Positions 1 through 62,527 of a stretch of 64,000 nucleotides of DNA are shown piece by piece. The first letter of the stretch is position 1. The number at the start of each line of letters is the position of its first letter. The position numbers and the translations under genes are program-made. The stretch is taken from assembly GCA_964291315.2 (NCBI GenBank), contig OZ219752.1, forward strand, positions 224,001 to 288,000, written 5' to 3'. The notes below the pieces were generated by a model. The model made no database searches and was not told where the DNA came from. It saw only the letters and a list, made by a program, of their open reading frames with translations. The stretch comes from Candidatus Poribacteria bacterium (lineage in GTDB: Bacteria > Poribacteria > WGA-4E > WGA-3G).

Positions 1-22
1 GTTGATAGTGAAGTAATCGGCT

Positions 23-102
23 GTAGCATAACCTGTTAGGTTGTGCATTGTGTCACGGTTGCTTGTAAGGATTTACTTGTGGCATAACCTGTTAGGTTGT
101 GC
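23..102. repeat. Two copies of the palindromic REP-like element GT(A/G)GCATAACCTGTTAGGTTGTGC (23-46, 79-102)
   Basis: Hairpin GCATAACCT-GTT-AGGTTGTGC preceded by GTAG/GTGG; further single copies at 2266-2290 and 31828-31852. Confidence 0.8.
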
Positions 103-127
103 GTTGTATCAAAAATATTAAATATAA

Positions 128-1357
128 ATGAAAAGACGGAGAAATGGTGTGAGAAGGACAGTGTTTGTTCTGTCAACTGTTGCGGTGCTGATGTTTTCGG
201 TTGTTCAGTTAGCAGCGGCACAATGGAAGGCGAACCATGTAACGAATCAGACAGATGAGAGTTTGTATGTGATCCATTCGACGTGGCGTCCTGCAAAGGA
301 CAATATTCCGAGCGGATTTCGGACGCGCGGATATTATCATCTGTTGGCGGGTGAGACTCGGAAGTTTTATGCGTGGTCAGACAATAGCATCTATTTCCGC
401 ATCCTTCGTTCGGACCAGGCGATAAAACCGAACGTTAATGAGGTGACGTTTGGGTTTTGGGTTCATCCGTCTCGCGCGTTTATGATAGTCTCGGACGAGC
501 TGAGTGCTGCTGTGAAGTTGTCTGATTTGAGTTATGTGAATCGTCCTCGCGATGGTTTTGTTCGCGAGGATGGTTTTATGAAGTATTCGAATGGTTCTGT
601 TGTGAATATCACGTCGGGTTGGGTGTCCGTGGTTCCGGATGCGCCAGTCCCGGATGCGCCGGACGCTGGCGGCGTTGTAGATCTGCCGGGTGCTCCGCCC
701 GAGGGCATGGTATTGATTCCAGCGGGTACATTTCAGATGGGTAGCAACAGTGGTAGAGGCCATGAAAAACCCGTTCATTCTGTGTCTATAGATGCGTTTT
801 ATATGGATACACATGAAGTAACAAACGCAGAATACACGGTGTTTCTCAATGCGAAGGGCAAACATGCCGATGCGGGTCAGATATGGTTGGATATCGGCGG
901 TTTCGGCACGCGCATTGAGCTTGTAGCGGGTGCGTACCGTTCTATGTCGGAGTATACGAATCATCCTGTCGTTAACGTAAGTTGGTATGGTGCGATGGCG
1001 TATGCTGCGTGGGCAGGCAAACGGCTGCCGACGGAAGCGGAGTGGGAGTATGCGGCTCGCGGCGGTTTAGCCGGTAAGAAGTATCCATGGGGCAACACGA
1101 TAGACTCCAGTCGTGCCAATTATGATGATCATAAAAAATTTTTTGAAACAACAGAAGTGGGTTCATATCCAGCGAATGGGTATGGTTTGCACGATATGAC
1201 GGGGAATGTCTGGGAATGGTGCTTAGATGAGTATGACAGGGGGTTCTACGCCAGTTCTCCTGCTCAGAATCCCCTATCGGGTTCCCCCGATATTCAGACG
1301 TTATTAGATACCTACACCTCAATTAAATGGTTTGGTGTCTTGCGTGGCGGCTCCTAG
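128..1357 (+). CDS. Secreted FGE-sulfatase (SUMF1/CLec-fold) domain protein, C-terminally truncated
   Basis: Signal peptide, unknown N-domain, Pro-rich linker, then MVLIPAGTFQMGS, RLPTEAEWEYAARGG, NGYGLHDMTGNVWEW; stops at VLRGGS-TAG before the usual W...GFRC tail. Confidence 0.85.
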   Translation: MKRRRNGVRRTVFVLSTVAVLMFSVVQLAAAQWKANHVTNQTDESLYVIHSTWRPAKDNIPSGFRTRGYYHLLAGETRKFYAWSDNSIYFRILRSDQAIKPNVNEVTFGFWVHPSRAFMIVSDELSAAVKLSDLSYVNRPRDGFVREDGFMKYSNGSVVNITSGWVSVVPDAPVPDAPDAGGVVDLPGAPPEGMVLIPAGTFQMGSNSGRGHEKPVHSVSIDAFYMDTHEVTNAEYTVFLNAKGKHADAGQIWLDIGGFGTRIELVAGAYRSMSEYTNHPVVNVSWYGAMAYAAWAGKRLPTEAEWEYAARGGLAGKKYPWGNTIDSSRANYDDHKKFFETTEVGSYPANGYGLHDMTGNVWEWCLDEYDRGFYASSPAQNPLSGSPDIQTLLDTYTSIKWFGVLRGGS

Positions 1358-2077
1358 ATGGGCAGCAACGACGCAGATTCTCTTGAGCACGAGCAGCCCG
1401 TTCATACTGTCTACGTAGATGCGTTTTATATGGACACGCATGAAGTGACGAACGCAGATTTCCAGCGATTTGTGTTGGCGAACCCGCAGTGGCAGAAGAG
1501 CCGTATTCCGCGCAACTTACACACTGGGTACTACCTATCTCATTGGGATGATGATAACAACTACCCTGCGGACAAGGCGAACCATCCTGTCGTTGAAGTG
1601 AGTTGGTATGCTGCGGTGGCTTATGCTGCGTGGGCAGGCAAACGGCTGCCGACGGAAGCGGAGTGGGAGTATGCGGCTCGCGGCGGACTCGCCGGGAAGA
1701 AATATCCATGGGGAGATACGATTGACATAAGTCATGCGAACTACGGCAATGAGGTCCGTGGGACGACACCGGTAGGGCATTATGCGCCGAATGGGTATGG
1801 TCTCTATGATATGGCCGGGAATGTCGATGAATGGTGCTTAGATGAGTATGACGAGGGGTTTTACGCCAGTTCTCCTGCTCAGAATCCCCTATCGGGTTCC
1901 CCCGATATTCAGACGTTATTAGATAACTATACATCAGCTGGACTGTTCCACGTCTTGCGTGGCGGCTCCTGGGACATCGCAGCTGAGGGCGTGCGGGTCT
2001 CCGAGCGCTACTCCCTTCCACCGTCGTACACGAACGGCGGTGCCGGATTTCGTTGCGCATGGTCTGTATCCCCTTGA
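1358..2077 (+). CDS. FGE-sulfatase (CLec-fold) domain protein lacking its N-terminus
   Basis: Starts at MGSND directly after the TAG of the previous ORF, same frame; RLPTEAEWE, RGGSW...GFRCA; no RBS or signal peptide. Confidence 0.8.
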   Translation: MGSNDADSLEHEQPVHTVYVDAFYMDTHEVTNADFQRFVLANPQWQKSRIPRNLHTGYYLSHWDDDNNYPADKANHPVVEVSWYAAVAYAAWAGKRLPTEAEWEYAARGGLAGKKYPWGDTIDISHANYGNEVRGTTPVGHYAPNGYGLYDMAGNVDEWCLDEYDEGFYASSPAQNPLSGSPDIQTLLDNYTSAGLFHVLRGGSWDIAAEGVRVSERYSLPPSYTNGGAGFRCAWSVSP

Positions 2078-2121
2078 ATCTTTTATTCATTAACATCTGA
2101 TATGAGATAAAATATACCCTC

Positions 2122-2217
2122 AGGGCGTGATAGCAGGTAGGTTTCTGCTGACAGCTATCATGCCCCTTTTATTGCTGCCTGGAGGAGGAAACTCCGATTT
2201 CCGATGACACAATAGAT
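2122..2217 (+). repeat. ~95-bp repeat with terminator-like hairpin (copy 1; copy 2 at 3432-3527)
   Basis: GGGCGTGATAGC...GCTATCATGCCC followed by TTTT; near-identical to 3432-3527. Confidence 0.75.
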
Positions 2218-2368
2218 ACTAAGTGTGCTATAATAGTCATAACGGGAAGGCGACGGCAGTGCCTTGTTGCATAACCTGTCAGGTTGTGCAACTTAACCCC
2301 GATTTTACACCGATCCCGCTATGCAGGTGTGGGCAATCCAACAATCAACGCATGAAACGAGGTGAAAC

Positions 2369-3238
2369 ATGTCTAAATGGAAATTGACAACCGTTGTTTT
2401 AATAAGTGTCACTCTCTGTAGCTGCCCCCAATCAAAAGAGATAAATAACAGAACTCAGGAGGACACCGCTCCTATGGGCATGGTGTTGATCCCTGCGGGC
2501 GATTTTCAGATGGGCAGCAACGATGCAGACTCTGACTCGGATGAGCAGCCCATTCATACCGTCTACGTGGATGCGTTCTATATAGATACGCATGAAGTGA
2601 CAAATTTGGACTTCAAGCGTTTTGTGTTGGCGAACCCGCAGTGGCAGAAGAGCCGGATTCCAAGCAGTTTACACACTGGAAACTACCTATCTCAGTGGGA
2701 TGATGATAACAACTACCCTGCGGGCAAGGCGAACCATCCGGTGGTGTATGTGAGTTGGTATGCTGCTGTGGCGTATGCGAAGTGGGCAGGCAAACGGCTG
2801 CCGACGGAGGCGGAGTGGGAGAGAGCTGCGCGCGGTGGCAAGTCTGGGCTGAAGTATCCCTGGGGAAACACGATTAGCAGCACACAAGCGAACTACGTCT
2901 TTAATGTCGGTGGGACGACGGCAGTGGGTGTGTATCCCGCGAATGGGTATGGTCTGTATGATATGGTGGGGAATGTCTGGGAGTGGTGTCTGGATGCGTA
3001 TAACAAGGACTACTATTTTAGTTCGCCGTCTCGTAATCCGCTGTCAGACGTAAATACGTTATCCAATGCAGACCTGATATTAGATAACTATACACAAATA
3101 AAGTCATCCCGCGTCTTGCGTGGCGGCTCCTGGTACTATGCAGCACGGGACGTGCGGGTCGCCGACCGCTACGACGATGCGCCAACGAGCACGTTCAACG
3201 ACTTCGGTTTTCGTTGTGCGAGGTCTGTATCGCCCTGA
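2369..3238 (+). CDS. FGE-sulfatase (CLec-fold) domain lipoprotein
   Basis: RBS GAGGTG; lipobox-like TLCSC; complete FGE-sulfatase motifs; lacks the catalytic Cys pair of true FGE. Confidence 0.9.
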   Translation: MSKWKLTTVVLISVTLCSCPQSKEINNRTQEDTAPMGMVLIPAGDFQMGSNDADSDSDEQPIHTVYVDAFYIDTHEVTNLDFKRFVLANPQWQKSRIPSSLHTGNYLSQWDDDNNYPAGKANHPVVYVSWYAAVAYAKWAGKRLPTEAEWERAARGGKSGLKYPWGNTISSTQANYVFNVGGTTAVGVYPANGYGLYDMVGNVWEWCLDAYNKDYYFSSPSRNPLSDVNTLSNADLILDNYTQIKSSRVLRGGSWYYAARDVRVADRYDDAPTSTFNDFGFRCARSVSP

Positions 3239-3431
3239 GTCTTAAATACTTAACATATTTTACTCTACGCCTGCAATGCAGGCGTTTGCGGCCCAAAATC
3301 AGTGTTTTACTTAACTGATGATTACTGATTGAATAGATTCTCAAAATGCCAGCTTCCACAGTTCAAGCCGTTCCTCTCTCCTAAGGGCTTAGAAGTTTCC
3401 GCTCGGTGGAGTTGAGCCAAAGATACAATCC

Positions 3432-3527
3432 GGGGCGTGGTGGCAGGTAGGCTTCTGCTGACAGCTAGCACGTCCCTTTTATTGCTGCCTGCAGGAGGAA
3501 ACTCCAACTTCCGACGACACAATAGAT
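3432..3527 (+). repeat. ~95-bp repeat copy 2, terminator-like hairpin
   Basis: GGGGCGTGGTGGC...GCTAGCACGTCCC TTTT; matches 2122-2217. Confidence 0.75.
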
Positions 3528-3614
3528 GCCAACTGTGTAAACAGGAAGCCTACATCCGGTTTAGGAGAGAGTCCTCTGCACAACATAAACAGGCACCAAA
3601 CTTTATACCGACAC

Positions 3615-5003
3615 TCAACCCTGCACCGGCAACCACATCAAGACCGTCGTCCCTTCACCCTGAACGCTCTCAATTTCAACGCGTCCGCCGTGTTCATCGA
3701 ATATCCGTTTCACGTTTGCCAATCCGAGGCCGGTGCCTTTCGTTTTTCGAGTAAAAAACGGCTCAAAGAGATGTTCTAAATCCGCTTCTGGTATTCCTGC
3801 TCCTGTATCCTCTACCTTTATGCAGACGCTGTCATTTTCTGTAAAGGTAGTCACTTTCAGTACCCCTCCTTGTGGCATCGCCTCTATTGCATTCAGGACA
3901 ACGTTCATAAACGCCTGCTTCAATTTATCTGAATCAAATTTAGCCTCTGGGGTTTCGGGTGACAACCGTAGCATCAACTGAATCTGATGGTGTGCCAAGT
4001 TGGCTGCCATCACGTCTAAAATGCCCTGCAGGAGCGGCGCGATAGGTTGTCGCTTGAGGGTAAGGGCTGTCGGACGCGAAAAGTCCATCAACCCTTTGAC
4101 GATGGCATCGATTCGCTCAATCTCTTCAAGAATAAAGCGGAGCGATTGTTGATGTTTTTCCGTTGCCATATCGGGTTTCTTCATCAACATTTGTGCTAGC
4201 ATCCGCATAGATGAGAGTGGGTTTCGAATCTCGTGTGCAAACGAAGCGGACATTTTTCCGGCTGTCGCCAAACGTTCGGCTTGAATTAGTTGGTCCCTTG
4301 ACTGTTTTAGGTCTAGGGTCATCTGATTGAACGCAGCAGCGAGGTCTCCGATCTCGTCGTGTGTTTTAAGTTCACACTGTTCATCTAAGTTGCCTGCGGC
4401 GACGCGCGCAGTGGAATCGACTAGCACCTTGATTGGAGTTGTCAGATTTTTTCCAATCTGTTGACTCATAAACGCGACCAAGACAAGAACGAGAATGGCG
4501 ATGCTGAACATATACCATGTGAACGTCTGTTTTGCTTCGGCGATTGCTTCTAGCGGACGCAGCAAGCAGTAGAAACGCCCGAAGTCGAGCAGCAGATAAA
4601 AAACTTTATACGGTTTTCCCGCAAGCGTAACGTCCTGTGTAACGGATGTCTCGTCTGGGTTCTCGAAACGCTGCTTGACCTGATGGAGCCGCATTTTATC
4701 CGCCAAATTCGCCCAGTCCTGCTCTGCATCGGAGAGTTTGTCAAACGTATGATAGTTTAGCGTGTAATCGGAACCGAAGATCATAATTTCAACGCTGTAG
4801 GCGCGTTTAAGTTTTTCCTGATCTTGCTCAATATATCCTGTTTCCACGATGGTATCAAGCCATCCCTCTGTTTCGCGCGTAAATTGCTCGCTGTACTTCC
4901 AGGCAAAGATTTCAATGGCTACCCAAGGTAGTACAACAACGACCACGGCAAAAAGAAGCAGGAACGGAAGAACGATTTTCGTTTGAATGCTATATCGACG
5001 CAT
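3615..5003 (-). CDS. Membrane sensor histidine kinase (HAMP-HisKA-HATPase, NtrB/AtoS-like)
   Basis: Two TM segments, HAMP, FAHEIRNPL H-box, NAIEAM, DTGAGI, GTGLGL. Confidence 0.92.
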   Translation of the reverse strand: MRRYSIQTKIVLPFLLLFAVVVVVLPWVAIEIFAWKYSEQFTRETEGWLDTIVETGYIEQDQEKLKRAYSVEIMIFGSDYTLNYHTFDKLSDAEQDWANLADKMRLHQVKQRFENPDETSVTQDVTLAGKPYKVFYLLLDFGRFYCLLRPLEAIAEAKQTFTWYMFSIAILVLVLVAFMSQQIGKNLTTPIKVLVDSTARVAAGNLDEQCELKTHDEIGDLAAAFNQMTLDLKQSRDQLIQAERLATAGKMSASFAHEIRNPLSSMRMLAQMLMKKPDMATEKHQQSLRFILEEIERIDAIVKGLMDFSRPTALTLKRQPIAPLLQGILDVMAANLAHHQIQLMLRLSPETPEAKFDSDKLKQAFMNVVLNAIEAMPQGGVLKVTTFTENDSVCIKVEDTGAGIPEADLEHLFEPFFTRKTKGTGLGLANVKRIFDEHGGRVEIESVQGEGTTVLMWLPVQG

Positions 5004-5305
5004 CAGAATACCTTCTTTTGCTCACAACCAGGGACGACTTCTATAAGTTTCAACGCTGTTGTCAGTATACCCTAAGATGGTTAACGCGTCAATTTCGCAT
5101 TTGACGTCGCCCGTTCTTTGCACAACACCGACAAAAAGCAGTTGAATTTTAAATTGAACGAAAACTGCACTGAGTATGTCTAATAGGGAAAAAAAGGAAC
5201 TTTTTAGCAGTTAGGGTGTATAAATTTTGCCTCGTTGTTTCTATTTGATACTATGAAACGAAGGTTTTCAAACTTTAAATATTGTTCCCCATGGAGAAAA
5301 CACAA

Positions 5306-5965
5306 ATGACAAATAGGATAGAATTCCGTACTTCGCCTACGGACCTAGAACATGCAGACACAGATCTTGATCAGGCGTGTGAGGATGAACTGATTGAGCG
5401 TTTCCAGCGAGGTGACAGAGAAGCCCTCAATCCGCTTGTTCTGAAGTACCAAAAAAAGATATACAATTTCTTGTATCGGCGCATTCGCGATAGAGAAGCG
5501 GCAGAAGATCTCTGCCAAGAGGTGTTTTTGAAGGCATTTAAAGCGCTCCCTAATTTCAAGGGCGACTCCACGTTTTATAGTTGGATCTATAGGATCGCTA
5601 TCAATTGCAGTATAGATTTTCAACGTCAGCGAAACCGGGCCAAAGTTCTCACATTTGAAGAATTATCATTTGATGCCGATGAGGTGCTGAGAATGGTGGA
5701 TTCGGATCCGTCCCCGGAGACAATCACTGAAATGGAGGAGCTCGGGCACATCATTCGCAAGGCTGTGGAGAAACTTCCACCTGGCCAGCGGCGTGTCTTT
5801 AATCTGCGTCACCGGAGCGATCTTGCTATTAAAGAGATTGCGGCTTTGTTAAATAGGTCGGAGGGGACGGTTAAAGCGCACCTGCATCATGCACACCAGC
5901 GGTTGCGGAGCATGCTGCTTCCCTATTTGCAAAATCAATCGATCGAATGGCACACGGAAACTTAA
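5306..5965 (+). CDS. ECF RNA polymerase sigma-70 factor
   Basis: AEDLCQEVFLKAF, FYSWIYRIAIN, region 4 EIAALLNRSEGTVKAHLHHA; start chosen from the GGAGA RBS (5291 is an alternative). Confidence 0.9.
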   Translation: MTNRIEFRTSPTDLEHADTDLDQACEDELIERFQRGDREALNPLVLKYQKKIYNFLYRRIRDREAAEDLCQEVFLKAFKALPNFKGDSTFYSWIYRIAINCSIDFQRQRNRAKVLTFEELSFDADEVLRMVDSDPSPETITEMEELGHIIRKAVEKLPPGQRRVFNLRHRSDLAIKEIAALLNRSEGTVKAHLHHAHQRLRSMLLPYLQNQSIEWHTET

Positions 5966-6167
5966 TAAAGAGCTTCCTAAGAGGTCGGTGGGATTTCCAA
6001 ACCTCGACGTTTACGCTATGATTTTAATAAAAATAGATAGGTAGGTATACTGCTAGGCGGGAATTCGGCAGAAGTGTTCCCGTCTTTGCTTGTAGGACTT
6101 AGAGGTGTGTATCTACAACGTTGTCAGGTTTTCGTCTTCCGGAAAAACAGGGTGTATTTGATTTAAC

Positions 6168-6196
6168 TTGACAATTTTCCTGAAATATAGTATAAT
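6168..6196 (+). promoter_or_regulatory. Consensus sigma-70 promoter of the tRNA operon
   Basis: TTGACA-17 nt-TATAAT perfect match, 24 nt upstream of tRNA-Ser. Confidence 0.9.
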
Positions 6197-6219
6197 AATA
6201 TATAAACTTCAGAGCGTCA

Positions 6220-6304
6220 GGTGGGATGGCTGAGTGGACGAAAGCGGCGGTCTTGAAAACCGTTATGGCGTAAGCCATCGTGGGTTCGAATCCTACTCCC
6301 ACCG
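6220..6304 (+). tRNA. tRNA-Ser(TGA)
   Basis: GGTGGGA/TCCCACC acceptor stem, anticodon loop CT-TGA-AA, long variable arm, GTTCGAATC. Confidence 0.95.
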
Positions 6305-6311
6305 CTGTTAA

Positions 6312-6396
6312 GGAGAGGTGCAGGAGTGGTTGAACTGGACTGCCTGCTAAGCAGTTATGGCGTAAGCCATCGTGGGTTCGAATCCCACCCTCTCCG
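6312..6396 (+). tRNA. tRNA-Ser(GCT)
   Basis: GGAGAGG/CCTCTCC, ACTGC-CT-GCT-AA-GCAGT, long variable arm. Confidence 0.95.
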
Positions 6397-6407
6397 TTCT
6401 ACAATAT

Positions 6408-6481
6408 GCGCCTGTAGCTCAGTGGATTAGAGCATCTGACTACGGATCAGAAGGCCGGGGGTTCGAATCCTCTCAGGCGCT
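6408..6481 (+). tRNA. tRNA-Arg(ACG)
   Basis: GCGCCTG/CAGGCGC, TCTGA-CT-ACG-GA-TCAGA. Confidence 0.95.
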
Positions 6482-6505
6482 TTCAAATCTTATATTGGAC
6501 AAAAT

Positions 6506-6961
6506 TTGGATCGCGATGTCTTTTGGATGCAGCAAGCAGTTGAATTAGCGCAACAAGCGGCAGAAAAGAGCGAAGTTCCAGTCGCCGCAATTCTAATTAA
6601 AGAGGACAGTTTAATTGCGCAAGCTCACAATTTGCGTGAGTCCTGTGGCAGCCCCATCGCTCATGCAGAAATATTGGTGATGCAAGCGGCGGCTGAAAAA
6701 ATTAGGAATTGGCGTTTTACTGACACAACTTTGTATGTGACCTTGGAGCCTTGCCCGATGTGTGCTGGAGCTATTGTGTTAGCTCGAATTCCAAAGGTTG
6801 TTTATGCTGCAGCAGATCCGAAATCCGGGGCAGCCGGAACGCTCTATAACATTCTACAAGATGACCGTTTGAATCATCGGGTTGAATTAGTGAGTGGTGT
6901 ATTAGCAGAGGAGAGTAGTGCACTTCTGAAGTCCTTCTTCCAAAAACGTCGCCGGAGATAA
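6506..6961 (+). CDS. tadA: tRNA adenosine(34) deaminase
   Basis: HAE and TLEPCPMCAGA zinc motifs, DPKSGAAG, FFQKRR end. Confidence 0.95.
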   Translation: MDRDVFWMQQAVELAQQAAEKSEVPVAAILIKEDSLIAQAHNLRESCGSPIAHAEILVMQAAAEKIRNWRFTDTTLYVTLEPCPMCAGAIVLARIPKVVYAAADPKSGAAGTLYNILQDDRLNHRVELVSGVLAEESSALLKSFFQKRRRR

Positions 6962-7103
6962 AAATGAATAATAGGCGGAAGCGGGAGTCTAAACGAGGTT
7001 TACTGTGCTGCCAGGACATCTCATCATAGCACCTCTAGTAATCTCATAAATCATGTTTCAGATATTCATCGGTGGGCGACAATCGAAGGTCCATAGTCAA
7101 TGC

Positions 7104-7188
7104 GGAGAGATGCAGGAGTGGTTGAACTGGACAGTCTCGAAAACTGTTGTGGCGCAAGTCACCGTGGGTTCGAATCCCACTCTCTCCG
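7104..7188 (+). tRNA. tRNA-Ser(CGA)
   Basis: GGAGAGA/TCTCTCC, ACAGT-CT-CGA-AA-ACTGT, long variable arm. Confidence 0.95.
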
Positions 7189-7264
7189 TTTTTAAGTATT
7201 TGTTACGTGAATCGTAGTGTTCGAAGAGTTAATTGCTGTCAGATGATTAAGTCTTTCAGTCTGT

Positions 7265-7337
7265 GGGGCAGTAGCTCAGTTGGGAGAGCGCATCCCTCGC
7301 ACGGATGAGGTCACGGGTTCAAATCCCGTCTGCTCCA
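7265..7337 (+). tRNA. tRNA-Ala(CGC)
   Basis: GGGGCAG/CTGCTCC with G3:U70, CATCC-CT-CGC-AC-GGATG. Confidence 0.95.
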
Positions 7338-7476
7338 TTTTTCTTTAGATCGTCTATTTCATGTTGTTTAAGAAGTGTTGATAAGAAGTGATTTGTAGCG
7401 TGAAACTTACCGCAATTCTCATAAGTCGTACTAATCGCTGTCCGCCTCTGTGCTTCATGAGATAAATATATTTTAT

Positions 7477-7568
7477 GGAGAGATGCAGGAGTTGGTTGAA
7501 CTGGCATGACTGGAAATCATGTGTGCTGTTTTGCAGTACCGTGGGTTCGAATCCCACTCTCTCCGCCA
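7477..7568 (+). tRNA. tRNA-Ser(GGA)
   Basis: GGAGAGA/TCTCTCC-G-CCA, CATGA-CT-GGA-AA-TCATG. Confidence 0.95.
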
Positions 7569-7684
7569 CTTTTAATGCAGAATTCTTGTAGCTATTAGCG
7601 TGTGGGCGTAGCAAGCTTAGATGTCCACCGGTTAGGCAGCAGGGAGCAGACTCGCTTTTTAACTATTCAGATAATTAACGTCTT

Positions 7685-7954
7685 GACTATGCTAGGTGGG
7701 GAGGTAGCGGTGCCCTGTATCTGCAATCCGCTAAAGCAGGACTGAATCCCTAGCATGCGGCCTGTTTCTGTGGGGCCTGTCCTATGCACGTGGTGTTGAT
7801 AGTTGGGTCTTGAGCAACGAGTGCTTGTTGAACCCCGTCAGGTCCGGAAGGAAGCAGCGGTAGGTAGGTTACTCGTGTGACGCAAGGGTGCCTGACTTGA
7901 GCTAACGACGTAGGCAACGCTCGGAGAAGCTTGTCAACTCTGGGTGCATAGTCA
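7685..7954 (+). ncRNA. ffs: Signal recognition particle RNA, large (Alu-domain, Bacillus scRNA-type)
   Basis: Helix 8 motif TCAGGTCCGGAAGGAAGCAGC; 5' Alu-like GGGGAGGTAGCGGTGCCCTG; terminal pairing GACTATGC/GCATAGTC; located upstream of dnaX. Confidence 0.92.
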
Positions 7955-8026
7955 ACTTTGAGGCGTGTTAATCGGACTGGCAACCCCCAATTCCGGAGTT
8001 CATGTCGTTTAAGGAAGGATTGTGCG

Positions 8027-31244: not shown

Positions 31245-32001
31245 TTTGAAACTTCTCCTATTACGTTCGGGTGCTGCTATGCACTACGCAACCTTCGGAC
31301 GACGGATGAGACAGTACAGTATTGCCCCCTATTTTAGCGCTCGGATAGGTATCCACTTATGCGCTTTGACGGCGGTAAAAGAGATTGGGGCGTGCCCCAA
31401 TATGGCAACACAGATAGCCTGCAACGTGCAAGGCACGCACAGGCGCGGAAAAACCACAACAGCAGCAAACACTGACGCTGTTTGGTGAATAAATATGTGA
31501 ATTGAAATACTTATCTTATGTAAATGGGGGGTAGGTAGTCTGTTAACTTATAGATAACAGGACGCTGACTACGGAAAAGCACGCGGCGACAGCACACAGG
31601 CCGCAGAAGGACATCTGAAGCCTCTTTACTCATCCCGAAATCCATATGAAAATACAGCATTGTTTCTACCTCTATATCAAAACTGAAATATTGATAAACG
31701 CTTTAGATAATGTTAATTATACACCTATTTTAATTTTTTTTGTCAACTTTTTTCCAAAAAAATAGAAAAATTATATTGTGCTTGCGCGAATCTAAAAAAG
31801 ACTAGGGGTTACGCGTGGAGCTCTTTTGTAACATAACCTGTTAGGTTGTGCAATGGCTCCGCTCGTTTTTTCGCAGTTTCCGTAGTTAAAAGATCGTTCT
31901 ATGCTCAAAGATGCATAAGTGCTATTGAGAACACTTAAATACCCAATCCTTTCTGCAAATTCCGAAATAGTTAAGTAGTTTTGCGGGGAGTGTGCTACGT
32001 C

Positions 32002-32092: not shown

Positions 32093-33442
32093 ATGATTCA
32101 AACAGTTTATCAAGAGGCGTATCGTCCGCAGTTCCATTTCACTGCTAAAACCAACTGGATTAACGATCCAAACGGTCTTGTTTACTATAAAGGGGAGTAT
32201 CATCTCTTCTTTCAACACAATCCGGTCGGCATCGATTGGGGAAATATGACATGGGGGCATGCTATTAGTCGCGACCTCGTCCATTGGAAGCAACTTCCAC
32301 ATGCCCTGCATCCTGATGAACTCGGCACAATCTTCTCCGGTTCGGCGGTTGTGGATTGGAAAAACACTGGCGGTTTCCAAACCGGTGATGAGGCAGTTCT
32401 CGTTAACTTTTATACGTCTGCCGGCAGCCACGCCCCCAAAGAATTGCCCTTTACGCAGAGCATTGCTTATAGTAACGACCGCGGGCGAAGTTGGACAAAA
32501 TACCAAAACAATCCTGTGCTTGACCATATTGTCGGCAGCAATCGTGACCCCAAGGTGATATGGCATGAACCGACGCAAAAATGGGTGATGGCGCTCTACC
32601 TCGATCAAAATGATTACGTGCTATTCGGGTCGAGAAACCTTAAGGCATGGACTCCACTGTCCGAGGTTCAAATTCCGGATACAGAGTGCCCTGATATCTT
32701 TGAACTTGCGGTTGATGCCGATCCAAATACTAGGAAATGGGTTTTCTGGGGAGCGGCAGGGCAATATTATGTGGGTGACTTTGACGGAACGACCTTCACG
32801 CCGGAAGGTGATGCTCGGTGCGCCGACTACGGTGCTAATTTTTATGCGGCTCAAACGTGGAGCGATGTTCCGGAGTCGGATGGCAGATGTCTCCAAATTG
32901 CTTGGATGAATGGCAGCAAACCACCGGACATGCCCTTTAATCAGCAGATGAGCTTCCCATGTGAGCTAACCCTTCGGACAACTTCAGATGGTATCCGACT
33001 CCATCGGGAACCGGTAGCGGAGATTGAAAATATCCACACCTATACGCACACATGGAGCAACATTGCCCTGAAGCCGAGTGAGAACCTGCTTTCTGGTTTA
33101 ACAGGCGAACTCTTCGATATCCGCGCTGAGATCGTACTAAACGATGCTGCAGCTGTTGGGTTCAACATTCGTGGAGAGGATGTTCGCTACGACGACGTGG
33201 CGACGCAACAACTTACATTTCTTGAAAGAAGCGGCCCACTTACACCGAAGAATGGAAAAATCAGTTTGCAGATTTTAGTCGATCGCATCTCTCTTGAGGC
33301 GTTCGGCAATGCTGGAGAGCTCTCTATGACCTCCTATTTCCTACCCGATCTGAACAACGCAGACATAGGGATTTATGCAGATGGGGGTACAGCAAGGCTG
33401 GTATCGCTAAAAGTACATGAATTAAGGTCATCGTGGGTGTAA
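32093..33442 (+). CDS. Glycoside hydrolase family 32 (levanase/beta-fructosidase)
   Basis: WINDPNG, WGHAIS.DL..W, FSGSAV, RDP, ECPD. Confidence 0.95.
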   Translation: MIQTVYQEAYRPQFHFTAKTNWINDPNGLVYYKGEYHLFFQHNPVGIDWGNMTWGHAISRDLVHWKQLPHALHPDELGTIFSGSAVVDWKNTGGFQTGDEAVLVNFYTSAGSHAPKELPFTQSIAYSNDRGRSWTKYQNNPVLDHIVGSNRDPKVIWHEPTQKWVMALYLDQNDYVLFGSRNLKAWTPLSEVQIPDTECPDIFELAVDADPNTRKWVFWGAAGQYYVGDFDGTTFTPEGDARCADYGANFYAAQTWSDVPESDGRCLQIAWMNGSKPPDMPFNQQMSFPCELTLRTTSDGIRLHREPVAEIENIHTYTHTWSNIALKPSENLLSGLTGELFDIRAEIVLNDAAAVGFNIRGEDVRYDDVATQQLTFLERSGPLTPKNGKISLQILVDRISLEAFGNAGELSMTSYFLPDLNNADIGIYADGGTARLVSLKVHELRSSWV

Positions 33443-37914: not shown

Positions 37915-38604
37915 CTATGAAAATAATTCTGTCAATACAGATTCTGTTCTGACTGCCTGCACCGTCCCGTTCGCGAATCGCATCGCCGACAAATGTGCAT
38001 ACAGAAAGTCCAGATCTTCAACTGTATCTATATCATACCATGGAGGTAGTAAGCCAACGCTTGCTTTTGCCGAACGTATGCGTGTCATTGTCTGTTGAAA
38101 AACGTCTGCTGTACTCCAAGGAATGTCCTCAAATACAAGCGGCACAGTCGTTGTTACATTCGCTGCAGAAAATCCTATGAGGTAATAGCCTCCATCTGTG
38201 CTCGGTCCAATGACGACATCGCGCCAGTCAAGTTGTGTAAGTGCTTGTGAAATATATGAAATAGGTAGCGTCGGACTGTCAGACCCGACGAGTAAAATTT
38301 TCGTATATCTGTGTTCAGCTGCCCACTGTGTCGCTGAAGCGAGTCTGTTTCCAAGCCCCGTTCCTGTCTGCGCTATATAGATAGGACCTTCTCCGATTAA
38401 CACTCGTAAATCCGATTCTGCTTCTGGTGGGGTATATGCAACGATTAAATCCACATCAGAGAGTTTCTTGATGATTTCACACCAATCTGTGAGGAATGCC
38501 GTGTACAATGTCGCCGCTTGCTCGGGTGACAGTGTTGGAACAAGCCGCGTCTTAACCTGATTCGGCACCGGGTTTTTAGCAAAAACAGTCACGCACATCT
38601 TCAC
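37915..38604 (-). CDS. DUF2064/TIGR04282 family glycosyltransferase
   Basis: FAKNPVPNQVKTRL, Q.G.GLG.RL, GSDSPTL, GPSTDGGYYLIG, IPWST, DIDTVEDL; start overlaps the upstream stop (GTGA). Confidence 0.88.
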   Translation of the reverse strand: MKMCVTVFAKNPVPNQVKTRLVPTLSPEQAATLYTAFLTDWCEIIKKLSDVDLIVAYTPPEAESDLRVLIGEGPIYIAQTGTGLGNRLASATQWAAEHRYTKILLVGSDSPTLPISYISQALTQLDWRDVVIGPSTDGGYYLIGFSAANVTTTVPLVFEDIPWSTADVFQQTMTRIRSAKASVGLLPPWYDIDTVEDLDFLYAHLSAMRFANGTVQAVRTESVLTELFS

Positions 38605-39332
38605 CGATTAAGTTCCTTGTTTGGCATAAAGGGTAGAGAGAGTTGATGCGGAGTCGGTTCGTCGGTTGAAAGAAGTTGGATTTCATCTGTTATAATCTTT
38701 AAATAGCGGTCTCGGTCTTGAAATATTCGTTCATCAACCCATCCATTTTTGGACAATGAAACAAATAGAGCAGCTGCGCGCGCTTGGCAATTGATTCCGC
38801 GCTTTGGGTTGAAAACGATGTCTGAAAAGCCCTGATATGCTTCGAGTTTTTTCACCAGGTCTCTCTCGTTCTGGTGGAGTGCCTTCATATACAACCAGTC
38901 ATAGAAGGCTGTTTTAGGTTCAGTCGGGAATTCTTCGCCACAGAGATCGAAAGCGATGAGTTCTCCTGAATTCCGTAGTCGCTCGTCGGTTTTTGCTGCT
39001 CGACTGGACACGGAGTAAAGCTCATGATAGGGGCCTCCATTTTTAAACACCTTGCTTCCTTGATAGGCACACTCTACGGTTGTCTTCTGGCCCTCCGGTA
39101 TTTCTAGTTGCAGATTAAAAGCACTCAGTGAAACACCCAATTCTAATCTGGATTTACCTGAAATTTCCAAAATAGGGCTGATACTGTATTTTTTGGCGGC
39201 TTCATGTAAGGAATCAATGGATTTTTGCAGTTGAGATTTTGCGAAGCCTGGATACCATTTAAACGTTAAGTCTATTTCATCAACATACGGGAATCCATTG
39301 AGGTTGGACGTGAAAATAGGGCGTTTTGCCAT
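38601..39332 (-). CDS. DarT-associated NADAR-like antitoxin (DUF6977-like)
   Basis: MAKRPIF, W.PGFA.SQ, LEISGKS, LSAFNL, VECAYQGSKVF..GGPY, PKTAFYDWLY, FNP...NCQARAAA. Confidence 0.8.
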   Translation of the reverse strand: MAKRPIFTSNLNGFPYVDEIDLTFKWYPGFAKSQLQKSIDSLHEAAKKYSISPILEISGKSRLELGVSLSAFNLQLEIPEGQKTTVECAYQGSKVFKNGGPYHELYSVSSRAAKTDERLRNSGELIAFDLCGEEFPTEPKTAFYDWLYMKALHQNERDLVKKLEAYQGFSDIVFNPKRGINCQARAAALFVSLSKNGWVDERIFQDRDRYLKIITDEIQLLSTDEPTPHQLSLPFMPNKELNR

Positions 39333-40067: not shown

Positions 40068-41456
40068 TTACAACCTTGGCTCATCTTGCCACGTTTCATC
40101 TATCGGATGATAGATGTCATCAGTTTCCCAGAATCCGAGGAGGTTATAGAGATCGCATAACCCGAAATCCTCCCTCAGCTCATGGTTCGCTGAGGCAGCC
40201 ATCCAAAGGGCTGCTGACCTTGCTTGGCAAGCCACCCCTCCTTTCGTGAACTTGAAGAAGAGGTCTGTGAATCCTTCGGCTGGAGAGAGCATTACATCAT
40301 TCTCTATCAGAGCTTTGATGTATATCCAGTCAAAGAATAATGTTTTAGGCCAGGTTGGGATCTCCTGGCCTTTGTAGTTGAACCCTATAAGTTTCCCGGA
40401 GCTTCTTAGACGCTTATCTGTCTTTGCGTTTCTAGGACTCATTTTATAGAGTTCGTGATAAGGTCCCCCATTCTTGAACACCTTACTGCCCTGGTATAGG
40501 CATTCGATGGGTATCCCTTTCAGTTTTAGGTTGAAGGCACTGAGTGCCCTCCATCTTTGTAACGACGACGCTGTGCTAATCTCATAAATAGGGGTGGGCA
40601 GCCCCATCTCGCTCGCAGCAGCGTGTATTGCCCTGACGTTCTCACTATTAGTGCTCCGCCACGCGAATCGGACGGGCACTGTTTTTACGTATCCACACTC
40701 GTAATCAGGGATAAAAACGGGAAGCACGGCTGGAACTACGTCACTAGTTGGGGCGTATGAAAGAGGTATACCATTGGCATCAAGATTTTCACTCTTCCAT
40801 ATACTATAATCAGATCTGGAATCGAAATATTGCCGGGAAATTTTATAATTGGAACTAGTTCTGATGGGCATCAATCTTTCTTGAGCAGCAGCATCCCAAT
40901 AGTGGATTTCCTTAATATATTGTACTGGTATTGGATTAAAAACCAGTACCTCTGCTTGCGGATGTGTTGGATAATTTTGGGGTATTGACAAATCTTGATG
41001 CCTTATACCATAGAAATCTTCAAACAGATCTTTCAATGCTTCGGGTCTTTTTCTATTTTCCAATGGAACGTTGTTAACGCGCCGGCTTGCAGCATTTTCC
41101 TTGCAAAAGGCACACTCAAATTCCCACAACACTTTTGCATCAAGCAAGAGAACAACCCATTGGGCATATTCGACTCCTTCCCAATCTTTTCTAAGCTTAT
41201 AAAACATTTTGTAATTTGGAAAACTAATGCTTAGACAGACCGCGTCCGTATTGTTATCGGCTCGATCGGGATCATTGAACAAAAAATTTCTTCTATCTGC
41301 TTCCAAAGCACTCCGCGACAGCAAGCCATCTTGTAAGATACTCGGTAAGTTTTCAATTCGAGTAAAGTGGCAAAGCGTTGTTATCTCTTTTTCTTCACAA
41401 ATTTGTTGTATCTGCCGTGCTCTCCAATTTTGTTCATAGAAATTTAACATCGGCAT
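40068..41456 (-). CDS. DarT-family ssDNA ADP-ribosyltransferase (DUF4433) fused to a C-terminal NADAR-like domain
   Basis: LCHFTRIENLPSIL.DGLLSR, CLSISFPNYKMFY, PQAEVLV; then EISTAS, LSAFNL, ECLYQGSKVFKNGGPY, FFDWIY, CQARSAA. Confidence 0.8.
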   Translation of the reverse strand: MPMLNFYEQNWRARQIQQICEEKEITTLCHFTRIENLPSILQDGLLSRSALEADRRNFLFNDPDRADNNTDAVCLSISFPNYKMFYKLRKDWEGVEYAQWVVLLLDAKVLWEFECAFCKENAASRRVNNVPLENRKRPEALKDLFEDFYGIRHQDLSIPQNYPTHPQAEVLVFNPIPVQYIKEIHYWDAAAQERLMPIRTSSNYKISRQYFDSRSDYSIWKSENLDANGIPLSYAPTSDVVPAVLPVFIPDYECGYVKTVPVRFAWRSTNSENVRAIHAAASEMGLPTPIYEISTASSLQRWRALSAFNLKLKGIPIECLYQGSKVFKNGGPYHELYKMSPRNAKTDKRLRSSGKLIGFNYKGQEIPTWPKTLFFDWIYIKALIENDVMLSPAEGFTDLFFKFTKGGVACQARSAALWMAASANHELREDFGLCDLYNLLGFWETDDIYHPIDETWQDEPRL

Positions 41457-59359: not shown

Positions 59360-59464
59360 AAACAGATTAGCTGGTTTTTCTTGCTGTGTGGAGAAGAGGT
59401 TCTCAAGGCTCGTTTATGCGTTTGCCCGCTTGCCCCATTCCTGAAAACCTGCTACAATATCCTT

Positions 59465-62400: not shown

Positions 62401-62527
62401 TCGGAGTGGGTTGGTCAACGATCCAAATCGTTCGGATGCGCCGCGGTATATTGTGGATTTAGTGGCGCGGGTTATCAGTGTCAGTCTAAAGACGGTAGAG
62501 ATTGTTAAGAATTTGCCGCAATTGTAA
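59465..62527 (+). CDS. Single-chain restriction-modification enzyme (nuclease, N6-adenine MTase, Type ISP-like C-terminal specificity domain)
   Basis: IDG...YWEAKD nuclease motif, GIVYTPQPIVDFM, DPFVGTGNF, IGNPPY, YRPF, LYFD, SALEWVIDQY; no helicase motifs. Confidence 0.88.
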   Translation: MSQLKLKPTHKAIRDYYATLQAYDQHKATHEGAVSNPFAFLLDTCAKQMKATLIPQYQMHTPNGNRIVIDGAILDEYSLPLAYWEAKDIDDDLTKAVEEKRAAGYPLDNILFQNPERTIVYQNGRVALDSDIRNAAGLIAALECLFAYLPPALENWQSAVKDFKEHVPALAGKLKELINQRHAVDTAFQTAFSNFYETCRTTINPELSQEAVEEMLIQHILTERIFRTVFNRSDFTYRNIIAVEIENVSSALMRHAMSRDVFLEPLDRFYSAIEQAAALCKDFSQKQHFLNTFYEQFFQGFSEKTADTHGIVYTPQPIVDFMVNSVRHLLETEFGRSLSDSGVHIIDPFVGTGNFIVRLMHDIQGTALETKYREELHCNEVMLLPYYIASLNIEQEYFRRTGAYLPFEGIVLADTFELLEQEQGQLFTRENTERVKRQKSAEMFVVIGNPPYNMGQANENDNNKNRKYPLMDARVAETYVKDSTATLRNKLYDPYVKAIRWASDRIGTEGVVALITNNSFLDGIAFDGMRKHLAEDFHAIYILDLGGNARKGLKVSSANVFGIRVGVSINLFVKNRDKSSDEPRIFYYRTDDLWNKEQKFEFLNKCRHAGEVAWQPIEPDARHAWLTEGLDPEFDTFTPMGSKALKRKKSGAGAAIFNLYSLGVCTGRDGLVYSSNLTLLQERVRTFIEIHNTTVDRKRRQDPNAPVERFIDTTDPRIKWSRQTKRALKKLELSTYEDSHFRKVLYRPFCQKYLYFDDFWNEERYQQHRIFPTPETEAENRVICVNVTLEKPFTCLMTACIPDLVVTGGFGSPTQCFSFYAYDEDGANRRENITDWALSEFRSHYKDDAISKWDIFHYTYGLLHHSDYRERYEANLKRDLPHIPFATDFWAFATAGAQLADLHINYEAAQKFELKYRETPDTPVDWCVEKMKLSKDKTQLKYNAFLTLEGIPAEAFAYRLGTRSALEWVIDQYRVKTHSRSGLVNDPNRSDAPRYIVDLVARVISVSLKTVEIVKNLPQL

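What the first reader, a model, noticed from the sequence alone, without database searches (positions are those of the whole stretch)
1952..3238. DGR-like hypervariable C-termini in FGE/CLec-fold paralogs with no RT in view
Seen: aligning 1952-2077 with 3113-3238, the flanks (GTCTTGCGTGGCGGCTCCTGG, GTGCGGGTC, TTTCGTTG) are identical. Of the 24 codons between GGSW and GFR, 15 change amino acid and 11 of those keep the third base (GAC/TAC, GGC/GAC, TCC/GAC, CTT/GAT, TAC/AGC, AAC/TTC, GGC/AAC, GCC/TTC etc.), the reverse of neutral drift. Established: diversity-generating retroelements mutate adenines of AAY template codons and target this region of FGE-type CLec folds (e.g. Treponema TvpA). Inference: these exported proteins are current or former remote targets of a DGR elsewhere in the genome, forming a diversified surface-receptor repertoire. 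Some synonymous differences show the copies have also drifted.
Basis: partly seen in the sequence, partly recalled or inferred. Interest (0 to 1): 0.8.

Follow-up and report, generated by a model that had tools for sequence, protein, structure and literature searches.

The report
Retroelement-written variable tips on lectin-fold genes
Two neighbouring genes for lectin-fold proteins end in a short stretch that looks rewritten by a diversity-generating retroelement, a known bacterial way of varying binding proteins, though the retroelement itself is not in this window.

Summary
Window 128-3238 holds three tandem FGE-sulfatase (C-type-lectin fold) genes. g2 and g3 share adenine-free flanks around 24 codons, of which 15 change the residue and 11 of those keep the third base.

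Two copies alone give modest statistics (p=0.003 to 0.04). The wider family settles it:
- In 81 homologues, 13 hypervariable columns carry K/E/Q/M/W in 26 of 1053 cells, against 171 of 958 in variable scaffold columns. Asn is the commonest residue there.
- Those 13 columns, fixed in advance, are exactly the 13 Asn columns of short Asn-rich template-like ORFs found later. Two of the three are labelled Candidatus Poribacteria.
- Excluding the all-permissive Lys column, 14 of 16 (g3) and 14 of 18 (g2) differing codons follow from that template by adenine-only changes.

So these are DGR-type variable regions of the TvpA/FGE class. No template repeat or reverse transcriptase lies in the 64 kb, and this genome was not in the searchable collection. 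Active target or orphan relic therefore stays open. g2 is a truncated fragment without a signal peptide.

This is a new member of a known kind and moderately interesting.

The parts
128..1357 (+). g1: FGE-sulfatase paralog. It has a signal-like N-terminus and an unassigned N-terminal region of about 190 residues. It is cut off right after Gly-Gly-Ser by a TAG, so its variable region is missing.
   Evidence: ORF. Pfam PF03781, E=7e-60, covering model positions 3-202 of 255. The 21-mer copy with one mismatch lies at 1337-1357. NCBIfam finds nothing in residues 1-191.
1358..2077 (+). g2: FGE-sulfatase paralog fragment. It starts inside the domain straight after g1's stop and has no signal peptide. 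It carries variable region A.
   Evidence: ORF. Pfam PF03781, E=6e-60, starting at model position 15.
1952..1972 (+). Adenine-free 5' flank of variable region A (Val-Leu-Arg-Gly-Gly-Ser-Trp codons). Sequence identity among the paralogs begins abruptly here.
   Evidence: family D9.
1973..2044 (+). Variable region A: 24 codons between Trp and Gly-Phe-Arg.
   Evidence: 11 of its 13 hypervariable-column codons are NNY. 15 of 19 differing codons are derivable from the P0219 template by adenine-only change.
2045..2077 (+). Conserved tail of g2 (Gly-Phe-Arg-Cys-Ala onward, then stop). This is the probable 3' end of template homology.
2369..3238 (+). g3: complete 289-residue FGE-sulfatase paralog with a lipoprotein-like N-terminus. 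It carries variable region B.
   Evidence: ORF. Pfam PF03781, E=1e-64, model positions 4-255. PDB sequence matches to FGEs (E=9e-38) and TvpA (E=3e-13).
3113..3133 (+). Adenine-free 5' flank of variable region B, identical to 1952-1972.
3134..3205 (+). Variable region B: 24 codons.
   Evidence: 12 of its 13 hypervariable-column codons are NNY. 15 of 17 differing codons are derivable from the P0219 template by adenine-only change.
3206..3238 (+). Conserved tail of g3 (Gly-Phe-Arg-Cys-Ala onward, then stop).

Best explanation
The last ~40 codons of g2 and g3 are variable regions of the FGE-type C-type-lectin class, written by a diversity-generating retroelement (DGR).

Proposed mechanism (inferred from the known DGR mechanism, not observed here):
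1. An Asn-rich template repeat is transcribed.
2. A DGR reverse transcriptase copies it and misincorporates opposite template adenines.
3. The cDNA replaces the stretch between the adenine-free 5' flank (Val-Leu-Arg-Gly-Gly-Ser-Trp) and the Gly-Phe-Arg-Cys-Ala tail.
4. AAY codons become NNY and ACN codons become NCN, while the fold-bearing residues stay fixed.

The proteins are not sulfatase-maturing enzymes. They are secreted or lipid-anchored binding proteins whose ligand-contact surface is varied.

The template and enzyme lie outside this 64-kb window, so they either act in trans or have been lost. g3 is an intact candidate target. g2, and g1 which has lost its variable region, are remnants of one deletion.

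What is shown: the adenine-type footprint, the fold family and the absence of the enzyme's active-site segment. What is inferred: the retrohoming steps, the export, the binding role and any present-day activity. I put present-day activity at about even odds.
For: 1. Family spectrum.
- 82 of the 120 best homologues have the same 24-residue spacing. The 81 other than the window's own give 13 columns with entropy above 3 bits; the next highest column has 2.57 bits.
- K/E/Q/M/W, the residues NNY codons cannot encode, fill 26 of 1053 cells there. In scaffold columns with entropy above 2.5 bits they fill 171 of 958 (Fisher p=1.6e-33).
- Asn is the commonest residue (169 of 1053). Columns 16, 18 and 20 are Thr/Ala/Ser/Pro sets, as expected from ACN codons.

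2. Codon level in the window. 23 of 26 codons at those columns are NNY, against 52% in the three genes' scaffolds (binomial p=1e-4).

3. Positive control. The same 21-mer heads a textbook variable/template repeat pair, 324 nt apart, in a Brevifollis genome (L004).

4. Cognate templates.
- A profile search returned short ORFs P0238 and P0239, both named Candidatus Poribacteria by NCBI, and P0219.
- Their homology to the family starts at Arg-Val-Leu-Arg-Gly-Gly-Ser-Trp and ends after Gly-Phe-Arg-Cys-Ala-Lys-Thr. Their flanks are unrelated to the FGE domain. Asn makes up 50-58% of the 24 columns.
- P0219's 13 Asn columns are exactly the 13 hypervariable columns defined earlier (1 chance in 2,496,144).

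5. Adenine-only derivability from P0219.
- g3: 29 of 31 codons after Trp. g2: 27 of 31. With template columns permuted the mean is 12.6 and the maximum 23 in 5000 permutations.
- Counting only differing residues: g3 15 of 17, g2 15 of 19, L007 14 of 16. Each count includes the Lys column, which any codon satisfies.
- Background for scaffold codons: 107 of 229 are derivable from Asn and 45 of 232 from Thr.

6. Turnover. The closest homologue, P0002, is 89% identical over 200 scaffold residues but matches at only 1 of 13 hypervariable columns and at 9 of 11 framework columns.

7. Precedent. The Treponema denticola DGR has seven dispersed FGE-type targets, and isolates without reverse transcriptase or template keep leftover targets (passages of PMC4891356; PMC5758913).
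Against: - No template copy exists in the window (blastn with word size 7; repeat scan). None of the 47 ORFs scanned has a reverse transcriptase or Avd domain.
- The window's genome was not among the 9 loci hit in genome contigs. No reverse transcriptase lies within 2 kb of the matches in the 31 of 121 ORF segments I scanned, covering loci L001, L002 and L004-L008.
- The template-like ORFs are known only as protein sequences from other genomes. Their DNA and neighbours were not seen, so their being non-coding templates beside a reverse transcriptase is inferred.
- Two (g3) to four (g2) codons are not adenine-derivable from P0219.
- Third-position differences in the variable stretch (6 of 24) are near the scaffold rate (69 of 195). 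At least three of them involve no adenine in either copy. The two copies were therefore not both rewritten recently from one template.
- P0003, on a contig of the same length as the window's, has 25 residues in this stretch rather than 24.
- No shared inverted repeat follows the two stop codons.
- Binding-site composition bias (Tyr/Ser/Gly/Asn-rich) could mimic part of the residue spectrum. It would not explain the NNY codon choice or the match to the Asn columns.
Confidence: 0.8

Rival explanations
1. Orphan relics. The variable regions were written by a DGR in an ancestor, but this genome no longer has the reverse transcriptase or template, and the copies now only drift.
For: - No reverse transcriptase or template lies in 64 kb.
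- Third-base differences in the variable stretch are near the background rate, and there are non-adenine differences between g2 and g3.
- g1 and g2 are broken.
- 8 of 17 T. denticola isolates keep targets without reverse transcriptase or template (Table 1 passage of PMC4891356).
Against: - g3 is intact, and only 2 of its 17 differing codons are non-derivable.
- DGRs that act on remote targets typically show several non-adenine substitutions and 3-bp indels anyway (passage of PMC5758913).
- 64 kb is a small part of a genome of several Mb.
Confidence: 0.4
2. Ordinary paralog divergence. The ligand-binding loop of a lectin fold evolves fast under diversifying or relaxed selection, with no retroelement involved.
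For: - The two-copy statistics are modest (p=0.003 to 0.04).
- The 15 codons upstream of the flank are also strongly diverged at positions 1 and 2.
- True FGEs share the same conserved framework residues.
Against: - It does not explain 23 of 26 NNY codons.
- It does not explain K/E/Q/M/W at 2.5% against 17.8%.
- It does not explain the Thr/Ala/Ser/Pro-only columns.
- It does not explain the exact coincidence of the 13 variable columns with Asn columns of Asn-rich short ORFs.
Confidence: 0.07
3. Working formylglycine-generating enzymes, or EgtB/GldK-type proteins, that mature the organism's sulfatases. On this view the C-terminal differences are functionally neutral.
For: The best solved-structure matches by sequence are real FGEs (E=9e-38). 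NCBI names relatives 'SUMF1/EgtB/PvdO family'.
Against: - In the alignment to bacterial FGEs, the segment after Gly-Gly-Ser that carries the two cysteines is a 4-residue gap plus non-Cys residues in g3. That these are the catalytic pair is recalled, not tested.
- g2 and g3 have no Cys between Trp and Gly-Phe-Arg-Cys.
- All NCBIfam equivalog matches fall far below their cut-offs, for example GldK at 134.6 bits against a cut-off of 350.
Confidence: 0.02

Closest known systems
Treponema denticola TvpA and its DGR with seven dispersed FGE-type targets (Le Coq and Ghosh 2011 as cited in PMC5758913; PMC4891356)
   Same: - C-terminal variable region in an FGE-subtype C-type-lectin fold.
- Several paralogous target genes, with targets far from the reverse transcriptase.
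- Lipoprotein-type N-termini.
- Truncated or 'suspicious' targets, and strains that keep targets without the retroelement.
- g3 matches TvpA (2y3c) at E=3e-13.
   Different: - By sequence g3 is much closer to true FGEs (E=9e-38) than to TvpA.
- The closest homologues are Poribacteria, not spirochaetes.
- No reverse transcriptase or template has been seen for this genome.
- Family members often carry dockerin or cohesin modules: 35 of the 120 best hits by my count of the Pfam column.
CLec1 / FGE-sulfatase target class, 'category b' of Wu et al. 2018 (PMC5758913)
   Same: - Same domain and same position of the variable region.
- Same framework: Gly-Gly-Ser-Trp, then Asn triplets, Arg, Asn triplet, Thr-Pro, more Asn, then Gly-Phe-Arg.
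- The window's two variable regions align without gaps to 10 of the 11 generic template ORFs used from other phyla; one carries a single-residue insertion.
   Different: - The template variant here has Thr-Pro-Thr-Asn-Thr and a Val-Arg-Val-Ala core where generic templates have Thr-Pro-Asp-Asn-Arg.
- Membership as a live target needs a template and reverse transcriptase, which were not seen.
Trans-diversified remote or incomplete DGR loci of Thiohalocapsa PB-PSB1 (PMC10907252)
   Same: Target genes without their own reverse transcriptase or template that are nevertheless diversified, and C-terminal FGE-type domains as the varied part (passages).
   Different: There the targets are STAND-NTPase conflict proteins and diversification was shown in natural populations. 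Here the targets are small exported proteins and no population data were available.
Formylglycine-generating enzymes (e.g. 6s07, 2q17, 1y1e)
   Same: Same fold family and strong sequence similarity over residues 118-285.
   Different: The cysteine-bearing active-site segment is missing and is replaced by the hypervariable stretch.

Membership tests
DGR target gene / variable region (FGE-type C-type-lectin class) | Variable stretch at the C-terminus of an FGE-sulfatase / C-type-lectin domain | tested here: met
   Pfam PF03781 runs to the last residues of g2 and g3. PDB sequence matches include TvpA.
DGR target gene / variable region (FGE-type C-type-lectin class) | Substitutions confined to template adenines (AAY to NNY, ACN to NCN) | tested here: met
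   NNY in 23 of 26 codons. K/E/Q/M/W in 26 of 1053 cells against 171 of 958. Derivable from P0219: 15 of 17 differing codons in g3 and 15 of 19 in g2. The template used is from another genome and known only as protein.
DGR target gene / variable region (FGE-type C-type-lectin class) | A cognate template repeat in the same genome | tested here: inconclusive
   None in the 64-kb window. The genome was not in genome contigs. Cognate template-like ORFs exist, two of them labelled Candidatus Poribacteria.
DGR target gene / variable region (FGE-type C-type-lectin class) | A DGR-clade reverse transcriptase (with Avd or HRDC accessory) in the same genome | tested here: inconclusive
   None among the 47 window ORFs scanned. 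None in the 31 ORF segments scanned from 7 of the 9 loci. The rest of the genome is out of reach.
DGR target gene / variable region (FGE-type C-type-lectin class) | IMH at the 3' end of the variable region, often followed by a GC-rich inverted repeat | tested here: inconclusive
   The tail from Gly-Phe-Arg-Cys-Ala is conserved, and homology with the template ORFs ends two residues later. g3 has an 8-bp GC-rich hairpin about 30 nt after its stop, while g2 has none until the repeat at 2123. Only 34% of DGRs have such a repeat (passage of PMC5758913).
Formylglycine-generating enzyme | Cysteine pair in the segment after Gly-Gly-Ser (catalytic role recalled, not from a call) | tested here: not met
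   In the alignment to 6s07, 5nxl and 6muj, a 4-residue gap and non-Cys residues stand at those positions. There is no Cys between Trp and Gly-Phe-Arg-Cys.
GldK / EgtB / PvdO / GldJ equivalogs (NCBIfam) | Score above the curated cut-off | tested here: not met
   The best hit is GldK at 134.6 bits against a cut-off of 350. All eight hits per protein fall below their cut-offs.

The most novel reading that the evidence does not exclude
Poribacteria may carry unusually large trans-acting DGR target repertoires. A dozen or more FGE/lectin receptor genes would be scattered over a chromosome. Many would be fused to dockerin or cohesin modules, so that hypervariable lectin heads are mounted on a cellulosome-like surface scaffold. 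One or a few Asn-rich templates of the P0219 type would write all of them.

Support so far:
- Among only the 120 best hits, 9 share a contig length of 4,833,177 and 8 share 4,605,424. Equal length is taken to mean the same chromosome.
- 35 of the 120 carry dockerin.
- The published maximum of non-adjacent targets in the passages I read is seven (PMC5758913).
- My searches of the held library found no paper linking Poribacteria or dockerin with DGRs.
Probability: 0.3. Interest if true: 0.7.

Novelty: new member of a known kind. Interest (0 to 1): 0.45.

Why it matters
Genes annotated as 'SUMF1/EgtB/PvdO family enzymes' in this lineage are better read as hypervariable binding proteins, which changes how their abundance should be interpreted.

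The case also shows that a DGR origin can be recognised without the retroelement in view. The recognisable signs are the NNY codon footprint, the Thr/Ala/Ser/Pro-only columns and the match to Asn columns of template ORFs from relatives. This matters because the metagenome survey of Roux et al. 2021 states that it could not detect remote targets (passage of PMC8144416).

If the family is live and as large as it looks, it would be among the largest programmable receptor repertoires in bacteria.

Tried and rejected
- Template in the window: blastn (word size 7) of both 200-nt ends against the window found only the three paralog copies. The repeat scan found the same.
- Reverse transcriptase in the window: none in 47 ORFs.
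The 21-mer also occurs in non-diversified FGE-family genes with EgtB-like ends (my reading) in L003 and L009, so it is not DGR-specific.
- Pfam on 31 of the 121 ORF segments of at least 110 residues from those loci, all from L001, L002 and L004-L008. I picked the long, non-overlapping-looking ones, and none came from L003 or L009. No reverse transcriptase was found.
- Search with the Brevifollis template ORF: 53 generic template ORFs among 84 candidates, none of the Poribacteria type.
- tblastn of P0239 against phage genomes: no match. The low-complexity filter may have masked the query.
The test was not made.
- Structure prediction of g3 with 38 sequences: mean pLDDT 55, and below 50 from residue 208 onward. 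I judged it too poor for a fold search, so none was run and it supports nothing.
- Atlas look-up of g1's N-terminal region: not available.
- Rfam on 1-8000: only tRNAs and SRP RNA, nothing at the repeats near the genes.
- 'One base of each differing pair is A' as a test: 20 of 34 by hand. This is near the 50% expected by chance, so I dropped it as uninformative.
No supplementary tables were opened, so the phylum lists in the supplements of PMC5758913 and PMC8144416 may already name Poribacteria DGRs.
Full report
ANATOMY

The start of the window holds three head-to-tail genes of the FGE-sulfatase family (Pfam PF03781, E=7e-60, 6e-60 and 1e-64).
- g1 (128-1357) has a signal-like N-terminus and about 190 residues matched by no family. 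It stops right after Gly-Gly-Ser at a TAG.
- g2 (1358-2077) begins at the very next codon, and that codon lies at position 15 of the Pfam model. It therefore has no signal peptide.
- g3 (2369-3238) is complete, with a lipoprotein-like N-terminus. This is my reading; no signal-peptide tool was run.

The rest of the window is ordinary chromosome: dnaX, recR, mnmG, rsmG, leuS, sensor kinases and sugar enzymes. The closest homologues sit on chromosomes of Candidatus Poribacteria MAGs. The window is therefore probably from that phylum, which is an inference.

OBSERVATION

- The 21-mer at 1952-1972 recurs exactly at 3113-3133 and with one mismatch at 1337-1357. None was expected by chance.
- The paralogs diverge immediately upstream of it.
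- None of the shared flanks contains an adenine.
- Of the 24 codons between Trp and Gly-Phe-Arg, 15 change the residue, 2 are synonymous, and 11 of the 15 keep the third base.

Against 195 scaffold codons of the same gene pair the bias is significant but not overwhelming.
- Differences by codon position are 12/10/6 in the variable stretch and 35/28/69 in the scaffold (p=0.003).
- Third base kept in non-synonymous codons: 11 of 15 against 20 of 49 (p=0.039).
- Third-position divergence inside the stretch (6 of 24) is about the scaffold rate (69 of 195).

Two sequences alone could not separate a retroelement from fast loop evolution.

FAMILY TEST

A protein search with g3 gave 7728 hits at E<=1e-20 among 8000 scored candidates, and the best 120 were listed. 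Of these 120, 82 have the same 24-residue spacing. The other 38 have other spacings or lack the motif and were dropped.

In the 81 sequences other than the window's own:
- 13 columns have entropy above 3 bits (1, 2, 3, 6, 11, 13, 14, 15, 19, 21, 22, 23, 24). The next highest column has 2.57 bits.
- In those 13 columns K, E, Q, M and W, the residues NNY codons cannot encode, fill 26 of 1053 cells. Asn is the most frequent residue.
- In scaffold columns of the same proteins with entropy above 2.5 bits, the figure is 171 of 958 (p=1.6e-33).
- Columns 16, 18 and 20 hold almost only Thr, Ala, Ser and Pro. That is what first-base changes of ACN codons give.

In the window's own DNA, 23 of the 26 codons at the 13 columns end in C or T, against 52% in the scaffolds (p=1e-4). 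This codon-level signal cannot come from selection on residue type alone.

TEMPLATE HUNT

The window has no further copy of the stretch and no reverse transcriptase.

- The window's genome is not among them.
- One locus, L004 from a Brevifollis MAG, is a textbook pair. A variable region sits at the end of a PEGA-FGE gene. 324 nt downstream lies a non-coding copy with Asn codons at every varied position. This serves as a positive control.
- The same 21-mer also occurs in non-diversified FGE-family genes (L003, L009), so it is not diagnostic by itself.

Gene callers sometimes translate template repeats, so I searched the protein collection for them.
- The Brevifollis template ORF recovered 53 generic Asn-rich ORFs.
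- A profile of those plus the window's two ends recovered many more.
- Among these were P0238 and P0239, both named Candidatus Poribacteria bacterium by NCBI, and P0219.
- These three share the stretch exemplified by P0219, RVLRGGSWNNNTTNVRVANRNNNTPTNTNNNNGFRCAKT. Their flanks are conserved among the three but unrelated to the FGE domain.
- P0219's 13 Asn columns are exactly the 13 hypervariable columns fixed beforehand (1 chance in 2,496,144). Its Thr columns include 16, 18 and 20.

From this template, 29 of 31 g3 codons and 27 of 31 g2 codons after Trp can be derived by changing adenines only. With template columns permuted the mean is 12.6 and the maximum 23 in 5000 permutations.

Counting only residues that differ gives 15 of 17 for g3, 15 of 19 for g2 and 14 of 16 for L007. 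The Lys column is uninformative because any codon can come from AAA. Without it the counts are 14 of 16 for g3 and 14 of 18 for g2. The background for scaffold codons is 47% for an Asn template and 19% for a Thr template.

The Trp/Arg difference after Cys-Ala in g2 and g3 also fits a Lys codon in the template.

Limits of this evidence:
- These ORFs are proteins from other genomes.
- I could not see their DNA or whether a reverse transcriptase is adjacent.

NOT AN ENZYME

By sequence g3 is nearest to true FGEs (6s07, E=9e-38) and more distant from TvpA (2y3c, E=3e-13). In the alignments, the FGE segment after Gly-Gly-Ser that holds the two cysteines is replaced in g3 by a 4-residue gap and non-Cys residues. 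That these are the catalytic pair is recalled, not tested. The hypervariable stretch occupies exactly that place. NCBIfam equivalogs (GldK, EgtB, SenA, PvdO, GldJ) all score far below their cut-offs. A structure prediction was too poor to use (mean pLDDT 55).

LIVE OR RELIC

For activity:
- g3 is intact and almost fully adenine-derivable.
- The closest homologue, P0002, is 89% identical in the scaffold but matches at only 1 of 13 hypervariable columns.
- DGRs with remote targets are the ones reported to make several non-adenine changes and 3-bp indels (passage of PMC5758913).

For decay:
- g1 and g2 are the two sides of one deletion.
- g2 has four non-derivable codons.
- At least three third-base differences between g2 and g3 involve no adenine in either copy.
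- P0003, on a contig of the same length as the window's, has a 25-residue stretch.
- No common hairpin follows the two stops.

T. denticola shows both states: seven dispersed targets with one template, and 8 of 17 isolates with leftover targets only (passages of PMC4891356). I put present activity at about even odds.

COMPARISON AND NOVELTY

This is the FGE-type C-type-lectin target class. It is the largest class in the survey of Wu et al. (71 of 372 DGRs), where remote targets are documented (passages). It is therefore a new member of a known kind.

What may be new is the host lineage and the scale.
- My searches of the held library found no paper that links Poribacteria with DGRs. Only one cold-seep virus paper holds both words, and in unrelated passages.
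- None links dockerin with DGRs.
- The main texts of PMC8144416, PMC10907252 and PMC11661182 do not mention Poribacteria. Supplements were not opened.
- 35 of the 120 best hits carry dockerin with or without cohesin, and up to 9 share one chromosome-sized contig length.

UNCHECKED

- The rest of this genome.
- The DNA context of the template-like ORFs.
- Read-level polymorphism.
- The closed metagenome and viral collections.

Noticed in passing
window 1337-1372: The g1/g2 junction. g1 runs through the adenine-free flank up to Gly-Gly-Ser and hits TAG where Trp should be. The next codon is the ATG of g2, which corresponds to an internal Met of the FGE domain (compare g3 at about 2510). One deletion seems to have removed g1's variable region, the spacer and g2's N-terminus. 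Its left end sits exactly at the first base pair of the variable stretch. An assembly join cannot be excluded.
   Followed up: partly
window 27-46, 83-102, 2270-2289, 31832-31851: A 20-nt near-palindrome occurs four times on the + strand, three times exactly and once with one mismatch, where 0.01 copies are expected. It lies upstream of g1 (two copies), upstream of g3, and upstream of the GH32 glycoside hydrolase gene at 32093-33442. It looks like a shared operator, which would tie the lectin-fold genes to a sugar-use regulon.
   Followed up: partly
window 2123-2227 and 3433-3537: A 105-nt repeat (88% identical) lies downstream of g2 and of g3. It forms a 12-bp stem with a long loop followed by a T run, and base changes between the copies keep the pairing. 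There is no Rfam match. It is probably a shared terminator module.
   Followed up: partly
window 38601-39332 (-) and 40068-41456 (-): A DarT ADP-ribosyltransferase fused to a NADAR domain, with a second stand-alone DarT1-associated NADAR protein nearby. This is a DarTG-like toxin-antitoxin or defence pair with an unusual fusion.
   Followed up: no
window 59381-62527 (+): A 1048-residue Type ISP restriction-modification enzyme (coupler, N6 methylase and Type ISP C-terminal specificity domains) lies between an ABC-type permease gene and leuS.
   Followed up: no
window 6220-7951: A cluster of six tRNA genes interleaved with a tadA-like deaminase gene, followed by the large SRP RNA at 7687-7951 just upstream of dnaX.
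   Followed up: no
L004 1797-2345 (-): The Brevifollis MAG has a complete variable/template repeat pair headed by the same 21-mer, but no reverse transcriptase within 2 kb on either side. A PIN-domain gene lies upstream. This is another case where the enzyme is not adjacent.
   Followed up: partly
L008 1197-4020 (+): In a Poribacteria chromosome, a small FGE gene with a 23-residue variable stretch is followed directly by an ankyrin-repeat-FGE fusion and preceded by a leucine-rich-repeat gene. The lectin-fold module is combined with eukaryote-like repeat domains in this phylum.
   Followed up: no
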